From Escherichia coli (GTDB taxonomy: Bacteria; Pseudomonadota; Gammaproteobacteria; Enterobacterales; Enterobacteriaceae), in NCBI RefSeq assembly GCF_044324875.1, contig NZ_CP172185.1: 64,000 nucleotides of DNA, one strand, 5' to 3'. The notes under the pieces were generated by a model. That model saw nothing but the letters and a program-made list of their open reading frames with translations. It was not told the DNA's origin and did no database searches. How positions within the stretch are numbered: the stretch's first letter is position 1; the number at the start of each line of letters is the position of its first letter. The position numbers and the translations under genes are program-made. This document shows positions 14,927 to 23,330 of this stretch, piece after piece.

Positions 14927-15108
14927 TCTCTGACGTTTTCCGGGTGGCGCTGGTCGCCCGGATTACTGTTGATAGGATGTGGTGACACCCTCTCTCGTAT
15001 TCCGCGTTACCCATTCAAGACCAAGCCATTAGTGCCTGTTTGGCCTCATTCTTCCCGCCAACACATCGATAAGGTTATTGGTATGTCACTGATGACAAGC
15101 GTAAGATT

Positions 15109-16119
<1,011 letters not shown>

Positions 16120-16203
16120 TGATTGGCATCCTGCCAGTCACTCCGGGAATTAACTCTTTTCACCACAGTCTCCATTGCCGTGTTTAAACCAGTGGAGACG
16201 TCA

Positions 16204-17769
16204 ATGTCCAGAAAGAGAAAATCCAGGAGCACTATGGAAACCTGTTTTAAGATCCTTCAGCTCAAGTTCGACAAGAAGCTGACTAACCGTTGTATCGGAC
16301 TGACGTTACACATCAGCGCCTCAACCGTTTTTGAGGTTCTTGCCCGCTTCAAAGCCTCTTCTCTGTCATGGCCATTACCTGCTGATATATCCCATGACAC
16401 GCTGGAGAAACTCATTTTTCCGCCCAAAGACACCTTTGCATCAGAGCTTGTAATGCCTGACATGTTGTACTTCGATACGGAAATGAGAAAACCAGGTGTG
16501 ACGCGGCAACTGTTGTGGATGGAATACAAGGCACAGGCGGGTAACAAAGCGATGGGATACTCGCACTTCTGCCGTTGCTACCGGGAGTGGAAAAAAACGC
16601 GACGTCTCTCCATGCGCCAGGAGCATCGTGCCGGCGAAAAGCTTTTTATCGACTTCTGTGGTCCTACGGTTCCTGTTATTAATCCGGACACCGGTGAGAT
16701 ACGCCGCGTGGCAATCTTCGTGGCCGTAATGGGGGCGTCCAACTATACCTACGTTGAAGCGTGCGAAGGTCAGGACATGATGTCATGGTTAAATGCCCAC
16801 AGCCGTTGCCTGACCTTCCTGGGCGGCGTACCGAAGCTGCTCATCCCCGATAACCTCAGAAGCGCAGTGAAAAAGGCCGATCGATATGAGCCTGTCATCA
16901 ACGACAGTTATCAGGCACTGGCTGAGCACTATGGCACGGTTATCATCCCGGCCCGACCACGCAAACCTAAAGATAAACCAAAAGCAGAAAACGGCGTCCT
17001 CATCGTTGAACGATGGCTTCTTGCCCGCATCCGTAATGAAACCTTCCACACGCTCAGGGCGCTGAATGCGCGCCTTAGGGAGTTACTGACAGACATGAAT
17101 AACCGGCCAATGAAGGGGTACGGCAATCAAACCCGTGCAGAACGCTTCCGCATACTGGATGCGCCAGCACTCTCTCCGCTGCCTCTGGCACCTTATGAAT
17201 ACACGGAATACAAAGCTGTGAAGGTTGGCCCTGACTACCACGTTGAATATGCCCGTCACTGGTACTCCGTTCCACACGAACTGGTCGGTCAGCGTCTGTC
17301 ACTGAAGGCGGGGCAGTCGGTGGTACAGCTCTGGCACAAGGGGCAGTGTGTGGCGCAACATCCGCGCAGCACACATGAATATAAACACACAACCAATCCG
17401 CTTCACATGCCAGAGCGCCACCGGCAGCACGGGACATGGACACCGGAACGCCTGATCGAGCAGGGAAAACGTACGGGCCCGTCCACAGGCCGGGTGGTTG
17501 AATCCATGCTGAAGGCAAAACCCCATCCGGAACTGGCTTATCGTGCAGTTCTGGGGCTGCTGGCACTTCAGAAAAAATACGGCCCGGAACGGCTGGAAAA
17601 GGCCTGTTACGTTGCCCTGCACTATAACGCCCCTGACAGACGCTTTATCGACAATCTGCTGCGTCACCATCGGGAGAACCTGGAGCTTCCATTATCCCGC
17701 CAGGGCGAACAACATCCGGCATATGCTTCAGAGCATGAAAACCTGCGTGGTCCGGGCTACTACCACTGA
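16204..17769 (+). CDS. istA: IS21-family transposase IstA
   Basis: Large ORF with HTH N-terminus and integrase-like core; start uncertain (16204 or 16234). Confidence 0.8.
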   Translation: MSRKRKSRSTMETCFKILQLKFDKKLTNRCIGLTLHISASTVFEVLARFKASSLSWPLPADISHDTLEKLIFPPKDTFASELVMPDMLYFDTEMRKPGVTRQLLWMEYKAQAGNKAMGYSHFCRCYREWKKTRRLSMRQEHRAGEKLFIDFCGPTVPVINPDTGEIRRVAIFVAVMGASNYTYVEACEGQDMMSWLNAHSRCLTFLGGVPKLLIPDNLRSAVKKADRYEPVINDSYQALAEHYGTVIIPARPRKPKDKPKAENGVLIVERWLLARIRNETFHTLRALNARLRELLTDMNNRPMKGYGNQTRAERFRILDAPALSPLPLAPYEYTEYKAVKVGPDYHVEYARHWYSVPHELVGQRLSLKAGQSVVQLWHKGQCVAQHPRSTHEYKHTTNPLHMPERHRQHGTWTPERLIEQGKRTGPSTGRVVESMLKAKPHPELAYRAVLGLLALQKKYGPERLEKACYVALHYNAPDRRFIDNLLRHHRENLELPLSRQGEQHPAYASEHENLRGPGYYH

Positions 17770-17785
17770 CAGAAGGAACAACAGT

Positions 17786-19117
<1,332 letters not shown>

Positions 19118-19159
19118 TGAACTGCACCCCAAATGTTGGACATAATCTGACATCTGAAG

Positions 19160-19690
19160 GTGCAGTTTATGAAACATTCATTTGAAGTAAAACTTGCCGC
19201 TGTAAATCACTACCTGGCTGGTCATGCAGGCATCATTTCTACGGCAAAACTCTTTCAACTTTCTCACACCAGCCTCTCACACTGGATTAATCTTTTTCTT
19301 CTTCACGGTCCTCGGGCACTGGATTGCAGACACAAGCGTAGCTATTCTCCTGAAGATAAACTTTGCGTGGTTCTTTATGCTCTCGGGCATTCTGAGTCTC
19401 TACCCCGGGTAGCTGCCCGGTTTAACATTCCCAGCCACAACACGGTTAAAAACTGGATAAAAGGCTACCGCAAATCTGGTAATGAGGCCTTTATCAGGCG
19501 CTGGAAGGAGAAAAGCATGACCCGTTCTGATGATACCCATGAAAACGAGGCAAACATGACGCCGGAAGAGATGAAGAATGAGCTGCGTTATCTTCGCGCA
19601 GAAAATGCATATCTGAAAGCCATGCAGGAGCATCTCCTGGAAAAAAAGCGCCAGGAGCTGGAGAAAAAACGAAAGTCATCCGGAGCCTGA
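19160..19690 (+). CDS. IS3-family transposase OrfA (HTH)
   Basis: 176-aa ORF with HTH and leucine-zipper-like C-terminus. Confidence 0.8.
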   Translation: MQFMKHSFEVKLAAVNHYLAGHAGIISTAKLFQLSHTSLSHWINLFLLHGPRALDCRHKRSYSPEDKLCVVLYALGHSESLPRVAARFNIPSHNTVKNWIKGYRKSGNEAFIRRWKEKSMTRSDDTHENEANMTPEEMKNELRYLRAENAYLKAMQEHLLEKKRQELEKKRKSSGA

Positions 19691-19794
19691 GGTGCGGACA
19701 CTGCCAGTCTGACCTGTTAAAGGCTGCAGGGCTGGCCAGAAGCACGCTGTACTACCAGCTGTCACTGCAGAAGGCTAAGGACAAGTATGCTGAT

Positions 19795-20576
<782 letters not shown>

Positions 20577-20786
20577 ACGCACGTTGTCAGCAAATGGCGA
20601 AAAAAGTCCCCTTGTTGAATCTTTAAAGAAAGTGTATTTACGCATCACTTTTTATTTTTGCGAGGCGTTTTTCAGATATGAAGTAACAGTTGCAGTTATT
20701 ATAAGTTCAAGTAAAACAGCCTCGTATTAATTCCAGAATAAGGGCATCTGGCTTTTTATTTAATATTCAAGAATGAAAAGTTTTTG

Positions 20787-21005
20787 TCATTCCTTATGCT
20801 CATGACACTCATCATCAACACCTGCTACCTCATCCCTTTGCCTACCGCCTTTTACCTTACGCACCGGAAATTGCTGCCGCTCCAGATATTGCTCCACCGC
20901 TTCGCGTAAAATTGCAGATCGTGAAACCTTACGCCAGCCCCGAAGCTTGTTCAGCCGTTTAATTGCCTCGTCTGATAAATGAAGAAAAACCGTACTCATC
21001 ACCAT
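20787..21005 (-). CDS. yiiE: Ribbon-helix-helix (CopG-like) small DNA-binding protein
   Basis: 72-aa product from ATG 21005 (MVMSTVFLHLSDEAIKRLNKLRGW...); GAGGGGG RBS. Confidence 0.7.
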   Translation of the reverse strand: MVMSTVFLHLSDEAIKRLNKLRGWRKVSRSAILREAVEQYLERQQFPVRKVKGGRQRDEVAGVDDECHEHKE

Positions 21006-21253
21006 CGCCACCCCCTCACATATATCTCTCGTCAATGCATGGTGCGAAAATTACGCCGAAAATTTAATTAATAAAAGCTGATTTTTGCATCTTGTTTTAT
21101 TTTTGCGAGACGTTTTCCAGAAATAATGCAACAGTTGCAGTTATTTCAATTAATATTAAAAAACGGTTCAGCTATCATCCGGGATGATTTACTATTCTTC
21201 ATCAGGTGCTGGCGCACCCACAGGAAAGAAACGATAAACAATAAGGATGAGTT

Positions 21254-21724
21254 ATGGATGCTGATAATATATTATATTCAGGAATGTTTATTTTTTTGAT
21301 CGGTTTTGCATGGATCTTCGGTTGCATCATCCGCATGGTGTACCCGAAAAAAGTCAGCGTCTTTACCGCTCCAGGCTTTAGCGGCGCTGTTACCCTGCCA
21401 AAAGCAGGTGACTATGCGGTGACAATTACACTCCCGCTCAAAAGCGGTATTGCGTCATATCTCCCTGGCGCGAGCTTTTATTCAGCACAGTTTACCATTA
21501 CCGCCTCTGAGAGCCAGCAAGCAATAGCACTACAACGTAAAGGAAAGTGGGGAGCTAATTCTTATAACAAGGATTTTATCGGTAATAAAAGCCATATTAT
21601 TGGGGTATTTAATTGCCCTCAAGCCACGGAGAATTACGACATAGTTTGCACTAATCCACAGATTATTCACGACACCTATAAAGTGGAAATCATAAACTAT
21701 ATCTCTCTCTCGGAAAAAGAATGA
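21254..21724 (+). CDS. Hypothetical membrane-anchored protein
   Basis: 156-aa ORF; AAGGA RBS; N-terminal hydrophobic helix then Ser/Thr/Gly-rich domain; AT-rich. Confidence 0.55.
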   Translation: MDADNILYSGMFIFLIGFAWIFGCIIRMVYPKKVSVFTAPGFSGAVTLPKAGDYAVTITLPLKSGIASYLPGASFYSAQFTITASESQQAIALQRKGKWGANSYNKDFIGNKSHIIGVFNCPQATENYDIVCTNPQIIHDTYKVEIINYISLSEKE

Positions 21725-21795
21725 TGCAAACCATCCCCGGTTGGATCCTTGTTTTTATTGCGGTGGGGTTAATTATTATTCCGCAAGTAAGTTAA
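21721..21795 (+). CDS. Possible 24-aa hydrophobic peptide overlapping the stop of the upstream gene
   Basis: ATGATG overlapping upstream TGA; MMQTIPGWILVFIAVGLIIIPQVS is a single transmembrane-like helix. Confidence 0.25.
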   Translation: MMQTIPGWILVFIAVGLIIIPQVS

Positions 21796-21832
21796 TGGCA
21801 GAGATTACTGCACTGCATCCATCGCAGACCGG

Positions 21833-22141
21833 TCAGTGCTGCCACCAACCGGTCTTTACTTGGTAGTAGTAGTAATTTTGCGGATAACAGTCCGGGAACC
21901 AGACAATTCCTTGTGGATCATCCCCCTTCATCACCCGATAGCATTGGCGTCGATCATCGGCGCGGCGACGAAGAGTAGTATAAAGCCGTTTCCACTCATG
22001 ATCGCCCGGTGTACTGTAGTTTACCCAACACTCCATTGAAGGGTGACGCCATTTACCTGTCAGTGTTGGGATCCCTGAATGATTATGCAGCTTCGCTTTA
22101 CCATTACGATCCCTATCTTTACGCGTATTAAGCGTGGACAT
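21833..22141 (-). CDS. Hypothetical basic protein (102 aa)
   Basis: ORF with AGGAG RBS 8 nt upstream of ATG; no recognisable domain. Confidence 0.5.
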   Translation of the reverse strand: MSTLNTRKDRDRNGKAKLHNHSGIPTLTGKWRHPSMECWVNYSTPGDHEWKRLYTTLRRRADDRRQCYRVMKGDDPQGIVWFPDCYPQNYYYYQVKTGWWQH

Positions 22142-22202
22142 TTTTAGTCTCCTGTTAAGAGTTCTAAAAATGTGCTTCCTTAAAATAGTTCATCATTTTC
22201 CC

Positions 22203-22415
22203 TTAATTCGCATAGCGTGCTTTTGCTCGAATTTCCGATACGCGGGGACCATTATGATAGCGTCGATGCCCACACATCCAACAAGAACAAATACAGGGAG
22301 TACGAAAGCAAATACCTGATGCTTTTTTGCTTCCATCGCCTGCAGTGCGATAACGGCAGCGGATTTTTTTTAATCGCGCCATATGATGGCGACGTTCAGC
22401 ACGATTACGGGTCAT
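22203..22415 (-). CDS. Hypothetical Arg-rich, Cys-rich small protein (70 aa)
   Basis: ORF with AGGAG RBS; CFRTPCICSCWMCGH cluster suggests metal binding; RBS lies in a hairpin arm. Confidence 0.5.
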   Translation of the reverse strand: MTRNRAERRHHMARLKKIRCRYRTAGDGSKKASGICFRTPCICSCWMCGHRRYHNGPRVSEIRAKARYAN

Positions 22416-22422
22416 AGTAAAA

Positions 22423-22528
22423 CTCCTGAGCAGGCGGCACTATGCCGCTTTCATAGGAGTTCTGAATGCTGGTGCTTTCTGTATGGCATAACCATGCCTC
22501 TAACGGTTAAGTGCCTGCAGCACATGTT
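22423..22528. repeat. Copy 1 of a ~100-bp repeat containing a 37-bp palindrome
   Basis: About 85 percent identical to 24240-24343; overlaps the last codons of the HigA-like gene. Confidence 0.6.
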
Positions 22529-22790
22529 GCGGATCATTGGCAATCGCTCGCAGCAAAGCCTTTGCAGGCCCAGTCGGTGAACGTCGCCCCTGCTCCCAGT
22601 TACGCAACGTGTCTACGCTTACGGAAATAAGTTCGGCAAATTTAGATTGTGACAACCCTGAAGCGCGGCGTATTTCTTTGATTTTCATAGCATCAACTTC
22701 AAAAGTCCGTGAAGGGTGTCGCGTTCCTTCAATAATTTCATTCATCTGGGCCATGCTGTGAGTCAACCGCTCAAAAAGTGCCTTATCCAT
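22500..22790 (-). CDS. HTH (XRE-family) antitoxin, HigA-like
   Basis: 96-aa ORF; HTH region SGLSQSKFAELISVSVDTLRNWEQG; start directly after toxin gene stop. Confidence 0.75.
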   Translation of the reverse strand: MDKALFERLTHSMAQMNEIIEGTRHPSRTFEVDAMKIKEIRRASGLSQSKFAELISVSVDTLRNWEQGRRSPTGPAKALLRAIANDPQHVLQALNR

Positions 22791-23102
22791 TTACCACCTC
22801 GTATTTAACAACCGGAGCATTGATTTTTCCTGGGGAGACAGATCATCTTTAATACCCTTACGATAAATAAGCAGTAATCTGATCTCATAATGTTTAACCT
22901 GATGAAAGTAAATAACCCTGACACCAGCACGTTTCCCCTTTCCTCCTGACACCCATCGAACCTTTCTTAACCCACCAGTTTCAGGTATTACCTCACCATA
23001 GTCAGGATTCAAGGCCAGGAAAAACTGAAAACGACTGAATTCATCGTCGGTCAGCAGTTTTTGAACATCTTCAGTAAAAATTTCCGTTTCGATGAAGAGC
23101 AT
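22791..23102 (-). CDS. RelE/HigB-superfamily toxin
   Basis: 103-aa ORF with KGKRAGVRVIY motif; toxin-first gene order typical of HigBA-type modules. Confidence 0.7.
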   Translation of the reverse strand: MLFIETEIFTEDVQKLLTDDEFSRFQFFLALNPDYGEVIPETGGLRKVRWVSGGKGKRAGVRVIYFHQVKHYEIRLLLIYRKGIKDDLSPQEKSMLRLLNTRW

Positions 23103-23330
23103 AATTATACGCCATTGGCTTAGAGTAACAATCCTTTTTGTACGTCATTGACGTACCCTTGAAACCACTAGCTTACTGATAGTGCTCCAGCAAAACCACG
23201 TCTCTGCCGGGTTTGTCTTTACATTTGCGAGGCGCTTTCCAGATTTTTCACGCCCGTGAATTTCCCTGTATCCATCCAGCAAAAACGGGTGTATAAAACT
23301 GTACATTCATACAGCAAAATGAGTTCTACT

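What the first reader, a model, noticed from the sequence alone, without database searches (positions are those of the whole stretch)
22500..23102. HigB/HigA-like toxin-antitoxin pair in the accessory island
A 103-aa RelE/HigB-superfamily protein (KGKRAGVRVIY) is followed directly by a 96-aa XRE-type HTH protein, in toxin-first order with adjacent stop and start codons. This suggests addiction or defence function stabilising the island.
Basis: partly seen in the sequence, partly recalled or inferred. Interest (0 to 1): 0.45.

Follow-up and report, generated by a model that had tools for sequence, protein, structure and literature searches.

The report
Known HigB-2/HigA-2 toxin–antitoxin pair
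This is an ordinary, already-annotated E. coli toxin–antitoxin gene pair of the Vibrio cholerae HigB-2/HigA-2 type, sitting at a chromosomal spot where related bacteria carry the same pair, and it is not evidence of a new system.

Summary
On the minus strand, a 103-aa ORF (22791-23102) abuts a 96-aa ORF (22500-22790), with TAA directly followed by ATG.

- **Toxin:** it matches the solved V. cholerae HigB-2 structures (E 1e-19, ungapped). All four of its experimentally defined catalytic residues are conserved, and the model has a RelE fold (TM 0.86-0.88).
- **Antitoxin:** it is a HigA-2/"NadS" XRE-type HTH protein.
- **Regulatory signals:** two palindromes lie upstream and are conserved in eight or nine genera. 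The distal one shares the GTACG core and spacing of the footprinted V. cholerae operator. A Shine-Dalgarno-like sequence inside the toxin's last codons suggests translational coupling.
- **Prior knowledge:** the exact toxin sequence is already named "toxin HigB-2 [Escherichia coli]". The Salmonella pair at the same position appears to be the published SehCD.

The "island-stabilising" reading is only partly supported. About half of complete E. coli genomes carry the pair. However, Salmonella, Enterobacter, Klebsiella, Yokenella, Pseudocitrobacter and Cronobacter carry it next to fdhE, most of them in the same fabY-fdhE interval. In E. coli it has also been lost by deletion: O157:H7 lacks exactly the segment between two 100-nt direct repeats.

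No defence-system signal was found for the toxin. The finding is of low interest and already known.

The parts
22791..23102 (-). higB-2-type toxin gene (103 aa plus TAA stop); predicted ribosome-dependent mRNA endonuclease of the RelE superfamily
   Evidence: The ORF is. phmmer against PDB matches V. cholerae HigB-2 (5ja9, 5ja8, 8a0x, 9tv9) at E 1e-19 over residues 2-99 without gaps. The AF2 model has pLDDT 87.6, and its top Foldseek hits are HigB2 structures at TM 0.85-0.88. R49, R62, Y80 and K82 align with the catalytic R51, R64, Y82 and K84 of VcHigB2 (PMC5416850) and are invariant in an 18-sequence alignment. The exact sequence is named 'toxin HigB-2 [Escherichia coli]'.
22500..22790 (-). 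[quoted passage not shown]
   Evidence: Pfam HTH_3 at E 3.9e-10. NCBIfam NadS NF041265 scores 60.4 bits against a cut-off of 60. PDB HigA-2 matches at E 8e-9 over residues 5-89, and Atu1735 (2ppx) at 1e-10. In the AF2 model of toxin-linker-antitoxin, antitoxin residues 3-21 form a helix and 28-31 a strand, with block-mean pLDDT of 84-96. This is the helix-plus-strand arrangement described for VcHigA2 bound to HigB2.
22794..22800 (-). Shine-Dalgarno-like GAGGTGG inside the last toxin codons (T101-R102-W103), ending four bases (TAA plus one) before the antitoxin ATG; predicted to couple translation of the two genes
   Evidence: Read directly from the sequence. The same AGGTGG-stop-ATG junction is seen in Enterobacter, Xenorhabdus, Yokenella, Cronobacter, Klebsiella and Pseudocitrobacter loci; Trabulsiella has GGGCTGG. 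In some species the stop and start overlap (TGATG). The coupling function is inferred.
23140..23156 (.). O1: perfect palindrome GTACGTCA-A-TGACGTAC, the candidate HigA-2 operator, 38-54 nt upstream of the toxin ATG
   Evidence: It is the only inverted repeat found in the intergenic region. It is conserved in Enterobacter, Salmonella, Yokenella, Cronobacter, Klebsiella, Pseudocitrobacter and Trabulsiella. In several genera the outer G..C pair is changed symmetrically to A..T. It has the same GTACG/CGTAC cores, 7 nt apart, as the footprinted V. cholerae HigA2 operator TGTACGC-N5-GCGTACA (PMC11006873). Binding has not been tested.
23108..23122 (.). O2: imperfect palindrome TAAGCCA-A-TGGCGTA (6 of 7 arm positions), a second candidate operator, 33 bp centre-to-centre from O1 and ending 5 nt before the ATG
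   Evidence: The block GCCAATGGCGTA is conserved across eight genera in alignment A5. Trabulsiella has TACGCCAATGACGTA at this position. The operator role is inferred.
22421..22523 (-). D1a: a roughly 100-nt element overlapping the last codons of the antitoxin gene; likely the operon's intrinsic terminator, and the left recombination repeat
   Evidence: It forms a direct-repeat family with 24238-24341 at 88% identity. The minus-strand RNA folds into a long hairpin followed by UUUU (-34.5 kcal/mol, z -3.5). The O157:H7 junction is a D1a/D1b chimera.
24238..24341 (-). D1b: second copy of the repeat, downstream of the 617-aa gene and abutting the hydrolase stop. Together with D1a it brackets the 1817-bp antitoxin-toxin-hydrolase unit.
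   Evidence: See (2 copies in the window, 0 expected by chance). D1b is absent from strain 00_3230, which also lacks the 617-aa gene.

Best explanation
This is a chromosomal type II toxin-antitoxin operon of the V. cholerae HigB-2/HigA-2 kind. The proposed mechanism has five parts.

1. **Toxin (inferred from homology).** The 103-aa toxin enters the ribosomal A site and cleaves translated mRNA. It uses a RelE-like active site formed by R49, R62, Y80 and K82.
2. **Neutralisation (inferred).** The 96-aa antitoxin binds the toxin through its N-terminal ~30 residues, which fold into a helix plus a strand on the toxin.
3. **Autoregulation (inferred).** The antitoxin dimerises through its C-terminal HTH domain and represses the operon. 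It would do so at one or two palindromic operators (O1, O2) that flank or overlap the promoter.
4. **Coupled translation (inferred).** The antitoxin is translated by coupling, from a Shine-Dalgarno-like sequence embedded in the toxin's last codons.
5. **Activation (general TA knowledge, not tested here).** Free toxin would appear when the labile antitoxin is degraded or its synthesis stops.

Shown here are the genes, the homology, the fold, the conserved catalytic residues, the conserved palindromes and junction, and the genomic distribution.
For: **Anatomy and homology**
- The toxin matches HigB-2 crystal structures at E 1e-19. The fold matches at TM 0.85-0.88, with other RelE toxins next in the list.
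- The catalytic tetrad is conserved and invariant across the alignment.
- The antitoxin matches HigA-2 and HTH_3.
- The fused-chain AF2 model gives a confident helix plus strand for the antitoxin N-terminus, with pTM 0.71.

**Regulatory signals**
- O1 has the same core and spacing as the footprinted VcHigA2 operator and is conserved across genera.
- By my reading of the alignment against the residues named, two of the four base-contacting residues of VcHigA2 (N72, R77) are conserved in the E. coli protein. The other two differ (R68 to D, E71 to R).
- The Shine-Dalgarno-like junction is conserved.

**Experimental support from relatives**
[quoted passage not shown] Its structure and mutants are described in PMC5416850.
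- Salmonella SehCD behaved as a functional toxin/antidote pair, and SehC protein was detected (PMC4366850). SehCD is the pair next to fdhE, and the 2013 paper gave its toxin 72% identity to an 'E. coli HigB'. I infer it is the ortholog from position, protein size and that identity figure, not from a direct sequence comparison.

**Existing annotation**
- The exact protein is named toxin HigB-2 in public databases. Gerdes 2025 calls the E. coli allele WP_032269392.1 'HigB2'.
Against: **Family thresholds**
- The Pfam PF06296 score is 17.1, below the gathering score of 27. VcHigB2 itself only reaches 33.5.
- No NCBIfam model hits the toxin.

**Promoter**
- No convincing promoter or Shine-Dalgarno sequence precedes the toxin ATG.
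- The best sigma-70-like match (TTGTTA-16-TATAAT) ends 1 nt before the ATG. It is not conserved in other genera.

**Hints that the toxin is weak or dispensable**
- A retracted paper reported that deleting sehD caused no growth defect in Salmonella (PMC3868539). This evidence is of uncertain reliability.
- A Salmonella toxin allele indexed in about 1000 blocks of the collection (both loci I read) pairs an intact toxin with a frameshifted antitoxin.
- Some E. coli alleles have an ATA start codon or a G44R change in an invariant motif.
- The antitoxin is more conserved than the toxin: 83% versus 68% identity to Enterobacter.

**Untested**
- No activity was measured for this allele, which differs from the common E. 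coli allele at residue 94 (S for A).
Confidence: 0.85

Rival explanations
1. The module is attenuated or partly domesticated. The toxin is weakly expressed or weakly active, and the antitoxin (NadS) is kept mainly as a transcription factor. It might also act on the divergently transcribed alpha/beta-hydrolase gene that travels with the pair.
For: - The antitoxin is more conserved than the toxin: 83% versus 68% to Enterobacter, and 85-88% versus 66-67% to Salmonella.
- The toxin has no recognisable Shine-Dalgarno sequence, and the best -10 match abuts the ATG.
- Some E. coli alleles have an ATA start codon or a G44R change.
- A Salmonella lineage has an intact toxin with an N-terminally truncated antitoxin.
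- The hydrolase is adjacent and divergent in E. coli, Enterobacter, Klebsiella and Pseudocitrobacter, and is reported adjacent in S. Typhimurium.
- Hydrolase and pair are deleted together in O157:H7.
- A retracted paper reported no phenotype for sehD deletion.
Against: - The catalytic residues are invariant and the toxin reading frame is intact across genera.
- SehCD scored as a functional toxin/antidote pair in an independent study.
- O1 lies roughly 135 bp from the apparent hydrolase -10, so co-regulation is not evident from the sequence (my reading).
- The pair occurs without the hydrolase in Xenorhabdus, Trabulsiella, Yokenella and Cronobacter.
Confidence: 0.2
2. The pair is an addiction module that stabilises the surrounding accessory segment. 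Loss of the segment would free the stable toxin and kill or arrest the cell.
For: - V. cholerae higBA-2 can stabilise plasmids (as summarised in PMC11980606).
- The family is common on plasmids: 758 plasmid records.
- The interval is variable in E. coli and holds extra low-GC genes.
Against: - The pair is the conserved core of the interval in several genera, not a passenger of an island.
- About half of E. coli genomes lack it.
- O157:H7 lost exactly the pair plus hydrolase through the D1 repeats while keeping the neighbouring 617-aa gene. K-12 lost a larger 4.3-kb block.
- The module therefore has not prevented loss of itself or its neighbours.
Confidence: 0.1
3. The pair is an anti-phage abortive-infection system. 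A phage cue would release the toxin and shut down translation.
For: The support is by analogy only. Other RelE-superfamily HigB toxins in toxin-antitoxin-chaperone modules defend against phage (PMC11980606). The locus also has patchy distribution and fast-evolving toxin sequence.
Against: - The toxin has no PADLOC hit, and the antitoxin gives only generic HTH hits.
- No chaperone or other defence gene is adjacent.
- Homologues are rare in phage records: 7 records, several of which are bacterial contigs.
Confidence: 0.1

Closest known systems
Vibrio cholerae HigB-2/HigA-2 (higBA-2 of the superintegron; PDB 5JA8, 5JA9, 5JAA, 8A0X)
   Same: - The toxin is 42% identical without gaps.
- The fold is the same, at TM 0.85-0.88.
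- All four catalytic residues are conserved.
- The gene order is toxin first.
- The antitoxin has an N-terminal neutralising segment and a C-terminal XRE HTH.
- The operator has the same GTACG half-site core and spacing.
   Different: - The location is a chromosomal fabY-fdhE interval rather than an integron cassette.
- The stop and start codons abut.
- There may be two operators, whereas a single site was reported for V. cholerae.
- Two of the four base-contacting residues differ (my reading).
- The antitoxin N-terminus is only weakly similar in sequence.
- The Pfam score is below the family threshold.
Salmonella Typhimurium SehCD (STM4032.2N-STM4033; SL3979-SL3980)
   Same: - It occupies the same genomic position next to fdhE, with an acetyl-esterase neighbour (STM4032).
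- The 2013 paper gave the toxin 72% identity to an 'E. coli HigB', and the Salmonella toxins I read are 66-67% identical to the window toxin.
- Palindromes were described in the promoter region.
- It was functional in a toxicity/neutralisation assay.
   Different: - Orthology is inferred from position, protein size and the identity figure. I did not have the LT2 sequences to compare directly.
- Salmonella carries a second, unrelated HigBA-type module (sehAB) in the same interval.
- Much of the SehCD description comes from a paper that has since been retracted (PMC3868539).
E. coli K-12 RelE/RelB
   Same: It shares the RelE fold and a RelE-like active-site layout. RelE structures are the next-best Foldseek hits. 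VcHigB2 is described as having an active site almost identical to that of EcRelE.
   Different: The gene order is reversed, with the antitoxin first. RelB is a ribbon-helix-helix protein rather than an XRE HTH. Sequence identity is only 10-12%.
Classical HigB/HigA (plasmid Rts1; E. coli K-12 YgjN/YgjM; Pfam PF05015/PF09907)
   Same: The gene order is toxin first, the toxin belongs to the RelE superfamily, and the antitoxin carries an HTH.
   Different: There is no Pfam hit to these families. Foldseek to K-12 HigB (5IFG) gives only E 0.4, and to Shigella HigB (5YCL) E 0.23. K-12-type HigA is about 140 aa. This is a different lineage despite the shared name (PMC11980606).

Membership tests
HigB-2/HigA-2 (V. 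cholerae type; Pfam PF06296 'RelE') | Toxin sequence homologous to V. cholerae HigB-2 | tested here: met
   phmmer against PDB gives E 7e-19 to 1e-19 over residues 2-99 with no gaps. Identity in the alignment is 42%.
HigB-2/HigA-2 (V. cholerae type; Pfam PF06296 'RelE') | Toxin reaches the Pfam PF06296 gathering score | tested here: not met
   The score is 17.1 bits against a cut-off of 27. VcHigB2 residues 4-101 score only 33.5, so the model is marginal even for its founding member. Several close orthologues carry a precomputed PF06296 hit.
HigB-2/HigA-2 (V. cholerae type; Pfam PF06296 'RelE') | RelE/BECR fold closest to HigB2 | tested here: met
   The AF2 model has pLDDT 87.6. The top 11 Foldseek hits are all HigB2 chains, at TM 0.76-0.88, followed by RelE toxins.
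HigB-2/HigA-2 (V. cholerae type; Pfam PF06296 'RelE') | Catalytic residues equivalent to VcHigB2 R51, R64, Y82 and K84 | tested here: met
   R49, R62, Y80 and K82 are aligned to them and are invariant in 18 sequences.
HigB-2/HigA-2 (V. cholerae type; Pfam PF06296 'RelE') | Toxin-first bicistronic operon with an antitoxin that has an N-terminal neutralising segment and a C-terminal XRE HTH | tested here: met
   Gene order is shown. The HigA-2 match is E 8e-9 over residues 5-89. HTH_3 covers residues 37-74. The fused AF2 model gives a helix at residues 3-21 and a strand at 28-31 with high confidence. I could not inspect the toxin-antitoxin interface itself.
HigB-2/HigA-2 (V. cholerae type; Pfam PF06296 'RelE') | Autoregulation through a palindromic operator bound by the antitoxin | tested here: inconclusive
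   A perfect 8-1-8 palindrome has the same GTACG core and spacing as the footprinted V. cholerae operator, and it is conserved across genera. Binding and repression were not tested.
HigB-2/HigA-2 (V. cholerae type; Pfam PF06296 'RelE') | Toxicity neutralised by the antitoxin; ribosome-dependent mRNA cleavage | not testable with these tools
   Evidence comes only from relatives: V. cholerae and Salmonella SehCD.
NadS family (NCBIfam NF041265) | Antitoxin reaches the curated equivalog cut-off | tested here: met
   The score is 60.4 bits against a cut-off of 60, over residues 5-89. RefSeq annotates the gene as nadS. I could not trace the origin or meaning of the name in the searchable literature.
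Classical HigB (Pfam PF05015 HigB-like / PF09907 HigB) | Profile match or closest fold to Rts1 or K-12 HigB | tested here: not met
   Pfam gives no hit at E<=0.01. Foldseek gives E 0.4 to 5IFG and E 0.23 to 5YCL.
MqsA-type antitoxin (Pfam PF15731 / TIGR03830) | Full-length match including the N-terminal zinc-binding CxxC domain | tested here: not met
   Only the HTH half matches, at 22.4 bits against 30 and 40.2 bits against 61.8. The 96-aa protein contains no cysteine at all.
Known anti-phage defence systems (PADLOC-DB 2.0) | Toxin or antitoxin matches a defence-system model | tested here: not met
   The toxin has 0 families. The antitoxin gives only generic HTH hits, to HTH_VI, RmrA and capH.

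The most novel reading that the evidence does not exclude
The fabY-fdhE interval may be a conserved site where Enterobacteriaceae accumulate toxin-antitoxin modules, with HigBA-2 plus a divergent esterase as the old core. Around that core sit SehAB in Salmonella, ParDE and VapBC in Pseudocitrobacter, and the orphan ribbon-helix-helix genes yiiE and yiiF in E. coli. Within the core, the toxin may be attenuated and fast-evolving while the better-conserved antitoxin (NadS) has taken on a regulatory role beyond its own operon. A shared 20-nt motif upstream of yiiE, yiiF and the higB-2/esterase region could link these genes in one regulon.
Probability: 0.15. Interest if true: 0.4.

Novelty: already known. 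Interest (0 to 1): 0.12.

Why it matters
It matters little as a discovery. The pair is already annotated as HigB-2/NadS in public databases, its family is structurally and biochemically characterised in V. cholerae, and the pair at the same site in Salmonella has been studied as SehCD.

The useful outcomes are corrective:

- **Family assignment.** The pair belongs to the HigB-2 (PF06296) lineage, not classical HigB. RefSeq still labels the toxin 'hypothetical protein' in many genomes, apparently because it falls below the profile thresholds.
- **Origin.** The pair is a long-standing occupant of a conserved chromosomal site, not cargo of a recent island.
- **Loss.** Its patchy presence in E. 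coli is explained at least in part by simple deletions. One of them is an exact recombination between two terminator-like repeats.

Tried and rejected
1. **SehAB as the Salmonella ortholog: rejected.** SehB is 142 aa and was modelled on K-12/Shigella-type HigA. The pair matching this one in position and size is SehCD.
2. **A. baumannii 'HigBA2Ab' (PMC5906591) as a characterised relative: rejected.** That toxin has a GP49 domain and belongs to a different family.
3. **Origin of the name 'NadS': not found.** Two literature searches gave nothing relevant. One paper only notes that a K-12 nadS gene is expressed.
4. **Rfam scan of 20000-27000: no credible RNA family**.
5. **The sigma-70-like TTGTTA-16-TATAAT site as the operon promoter: doubtful.** It ends 1 nt before the ATG, and its TATAAT is not conserved in other genera. 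An alternative has its -35 in the right arm of O1 (ATGACG, or TTGACG in other genera) and its -10 at TCTAAG (or TATAAG). This is my reading of the alignment and is unproven.
6. **dN/dS for toxin and antitoxin against Enterobacter, Salmonella and Xenorhabdus: no estimate.** Synonymous sites are saturated, so only amino-acid identities are reported.
7. **Vertical inheritance of the pair: not established.** Toxin identity to Xenorhabdus (67%) equals that to Salmonella and Enterobacter, while the flanking core genes are 91-97% identical. Shared position therefore does not prove simple vertical descent.
8. **Similarity of the neighbouring 617-aa protein to plasmid-borne IpgD-type effectors: none** by tblastn at E<=1e-3.
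Full report
**Observation.** A 103-aa ORF runs from the ATG at 23102 to a TAA at 22793-22791. It is followed with no gap by a 96-aa ORF, from the ATG at 22790-22788 to a TAG at 22502-22500. The two ORFs are in the same reading frame. The quoted motif KGKRAGVRVIY is residues 55-65 of the first protein. Both proteins have thousands of homologues. Both exact sequences are in public databases, as 'toxin HigB-2 [Escherichia coli]' and 'MULTISPECIES: NadS family protein [Enterobacteriaceae]'.

**What the toxin is.**
- Pfam gives only a sub-threshold match to PF06296 'RelE' (17.1 bits; cut-off 27), and NCBIfam gives nothing.
- A direct search of solved structures hits V. cholerae HigB-2 at E about 1e-19, over residues 2-99 and without a gap.
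- VcHigB2 itself scores only 33.5 bits against PF06296. The weak Pfam score therefore reflects a marginal model, not absence of homology.
- An AlphaFold2 model built on 18 homologues has mean pLDDT 87.6. Foldseek places it on the HigB2 crystal structures at TM 0.85-0.88. Mycobacterial, E. coli and archaeal RelE follow, and K-12 HigB comes only at E 0.4.
- Hadzi et al. 2017 (PMC5416850) showed by mutagenesis that R51, R64, Y82 and K84 of VcHigB2 are needed for activity. These align with R49, R62, Y80 and K82 here, and all four are invariant in the 18-sequence alignment.

**What the antitoxin is.**
- It has an XRE-type HTH at residues 37-74 (HTH_3, E 4e-10).
- It just reaches the NCBIfam NadS equivalog cut-off (60.4 against 60).
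- It matches V. cholerae HigA-2 at E 8e-9 over residues 5-89.
- I modelled toxin, a Gly-Ser linker and antitoxin as a single chain, using eight natural pairs as the alignment. In that model, antitoxin residues 3-21 form a helix and residues 28-31 a strand. Block-mean pLDDT is 84-96 and overall pTM is 0.71.
- This is the helix-then-strand arrangement described for the HigA2 N-terminus when bound to HigB2. I could not inspect the interface, so this is supportive only.

**Regulatory anatomy (inferred).**
- The only inverted repeat in the 150 bp upstream of the toxin is a perfect GTACGTCA-A-TGACGTAC at 23140-23156. By my arithmetic, roughly 0.002 such repeats are expected by chance in a region of this size.
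- The footprinted V. cholerae HigA2 operator is TGTACGC-N5-GCGTACA (PMC11006873). Written the same way, the E. coli site is gGTACGt-caatg-aCGTACa, with the same GTACG/CGTAC cores at the same spacing.
- The palindrome is conserved in Enterobacter, Salmonella, Yokenella, Cronobacter, Klebsiella, Pseudocitrobacter and Trabulsiella. In several genera the outer G..C pair changes symmetrically to A..T.
- A second, imperfect palindrome (TAAGCCA-A-TGGCGTA, 23108-23122) is equally conserved. It lies 33 bp centre-to-centre from the first.
- Of the four base-contacting residues of VcHigA2, N72 and R77 are conserved here, while R68 and E71 are replaced. This is my reading of the alignment.
- The best sigma-70-like match ends one base before the ATG, and its TATAAT is not conserved elsewhere. 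The promoter and the toxin's ribosome-binding site therefore remain unresolved.
- The toxin's last codons read ACG AGG TGG TAA ATG. This places GAGGTGG just upstream of the antitoxin start. The junction is conserved in the other genera, which points to translational coupling.
- Downstream of the antitoxin, the minus-strand RNA folds into a long hairpin followed by UUUU. This is probably the terminator.

**Where it sits.**
- The window is E. coli chromosome, in the interval between fdhE/yiiF/yiiE and fabY (yiiD)/dtd.
- Of 5426 complete E. coli genomes, 2635 carry at least 80% of the 851-bp query. K-12 lacks window positions about 21899-26157 and keeps only gene remnants.
- The interval is therefore accessory within E. 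coli, and it has lower GC than its flanks.
- The pair is nevertheless found between fabY and fdhE in Salmonella, Enterobacter, Yokenella, Klebsiella spallanzanii and Pseudocitrobacter. In Cronobacter it lies next to fdhE. An Abhydrolase_3 esterase is usually transcribed divergently from it.
- Other toxin-antitoxin modules share the interval. Pseudocitrobacter has ParDE and a ribbon-helix-helix/PIN pair. S. Typhimurium has sehAB. E. coli has the ribbon-helix-helix genes yiiE and yiiF.
- Xenorhabdus and Trabulsiella carry the pair elsewhere.
- The pair is much more diverged than its flanks. The toxin is 67-68% identical and the antitoxin 83%, against 91-97% for fabY, fdhE and dtd, and synonymous sites are saturated. 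The toxin is also no closer to Salmonella than to Xenorhabdus. Shared position therefore does not prove simple vertical descent.

**How it is lost.**
- Two copies of a ~100-nt direct repeat (22421-22523 and 24238-24341; 88% identity) bracket exactly the antitoxin, the toxin and the hydrolase, a unit of 1817 bp.
- O157:H7 strain 493/89 has a single chimeric repeat, with the left flank of the first copy and the right flank of the second. It lacks the unit but keeps the neighbouring gene.
- Strain 00_3230 has the pair and hydrolase directly next to fabY. It has neither the second repeat nor the 617-aa gene.
- These states argue against the idea that the pair holds the segment in place.

**Prior knowledge.**
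- Gerdes 2025 (PMC11980606) places HigB-2 in PF06296. He notes that it is closer to RelE than to Rts1 HigB, and he uses the E. coli allele WP_032269392.1 as 'HigB2 toxin from E. coli APEC179'.
- In S. Typhimurium the pair next to fdhE and the STM4032 esterase is SehCD.
- That description comes from a retracted paper (PMC3868539). It reported SehD binding to its own promoter and no phenotype for sehC or sehD mutants.
- An independent study (PMC4366850) found SehCD functional in a toxicity/neutralisation assay and detected SehC protein.
- I infer orthology from position, size and the reported 72% identity. I did not compare the LT2 sequences directly.

**Defence and mobility.** PADLOC has no model for the toxin, and the antitoxin gives only generic HTH hits. 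Homologues occur on 758 plasmids, mostly below 60% identity, and in seven 'phage' records, several of which are bacterial contigs. The family is thus mobile in general, but this copy shows no sign of it.

**Verdict.** This is a correctly spotted, ordinary and already-annotated HigB-2/HigA-2-type toxin-antitoxin operon. The mechanism is inferred with good confidence from close, experimentally characterised relatives. The island-stabilising or defence interpretation is not supported by the context.

Noticed in passing
window 24408-26261 (minus strand): A 617-aa ORF in a low-GC stretch (34-41%) has no Pfam, NCBIfam or PDB sequence match. It contains the exact string CKSAKDRT, the CX5R catalytic motif quoted for mammalian inositol polyphosphate 4-phosphatase INPP4B. 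It is split into two ORFs in O157:H7, reduced to a 5' remnant in K-12, and called 'transposase' plus a pseudogene by PGAP in some strains. It could be an uncharacterised phosphoinositide-phosphatase-like protein.
   Followed up: partly
window 22421-22523 and 24238-24341; L010 1373-1533: Two ~100-nt direct repeats, each with a 41-nt hairpin, bracket the antitoxin-toxin-hydrolase unit. O157:H7 carries one chimeric copy and lacks the unit, which is the signature of recombination between the repeats.
   Followed up: yes
window 20657-20676, 21102-21121, 23224-23243 (plus strand): The 20-nt motif TTTGCGAGRCGYTTTYCAGA occurs three times in the window, with 0 expected by chance. The copies lie upstream of yiiF, upstream of yiiE, and in the divergent higB-2/hydrolase region. 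The third copy is conserved in Enterobacter, Salmonella and Klebsiella. Its function is unknown; it may be a shared regulator site.
   Followed up: partly
L004 and L005 3313-3603 (Salmonella enterica): The Salmonella toxin allele P0110 is indexed in about 1000 blocks of the collection. In both loci I read for it, the toxin is intact but the antitoxin gene has a frameshift near codon 10. Only an 81-aa ORF remains, lacking the first 15 residues of the predicted toxin-binding helix.
   Followed up: partly
L003 4001-3999 and L012 (E. coli strains 2013C-4282 and S87): Some E. coli alleles carry changes likely to attenuate the toxin. In 2013C-4282 the start codon is ATA and TATAAT has become TACAGT. 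In S87 there is a G44R change in the invariant GGLRK motif. The antitoxin is intact in both. The window allele has ATG and differs from the common allele only at residue 94, with S for A.
   Followed up: partly
L017, L015, and PMC3868539 for S. Typhimurium; window 20300-21035: The fabY-fdhE interval collects toxin-antitoxin genes in several genera. Pseudocitrobacter has ParDE and a ribbon-helix-helix/PIN pair, Klebsiella has a lone RHH gene, and Salmonella has sehAB. The tandem RHH/CopG paralogues yiiE and yiiF in E. coli may be orphan antitoxin-like genes.
   Followed up: partly
window about 15000-20590: A cluster of insertion-sequence DNA lies between fdhE and yiiF, where other E. coli genomes have nothing. 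Matching records annotate it as IS21-family istA/istB, IS110-family and IS3/IS1397. No complete E. coli genome in the collection covers 80% of window 17000-24500.
   Followed up: partly
toxin versus antitoxin across genera: The antitoxin is more conserved than the toxin: 83% versus 68% to Enterobacter, and 85-88% versus 66-67% to Salmonella. By my general knowledge this is the reverse of what is usually reported for type II pairs.
   Followed up: partly
protein P0005 (one ENA metagenome contig): This is a 181-aa in-frame fusion of toxin residues 1-97 to antitoxin residues 13-96, that is, a 57-nt deletion across the junction. It could be a natural fused variant or an assembly artefact. Fused relE-yiaG genes are described in PMC11980606.
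   Followed up: no
E. coli K-12 (not in the window): A PIRT-seq paper reports expression of a PGAP-annotated 'nadS' gene (RS26030) in BW25113. K-12 lacks this locus, so a NadS-family paralogue must lie elsewhere in K-12. I did not locate it.
   Followed up: no
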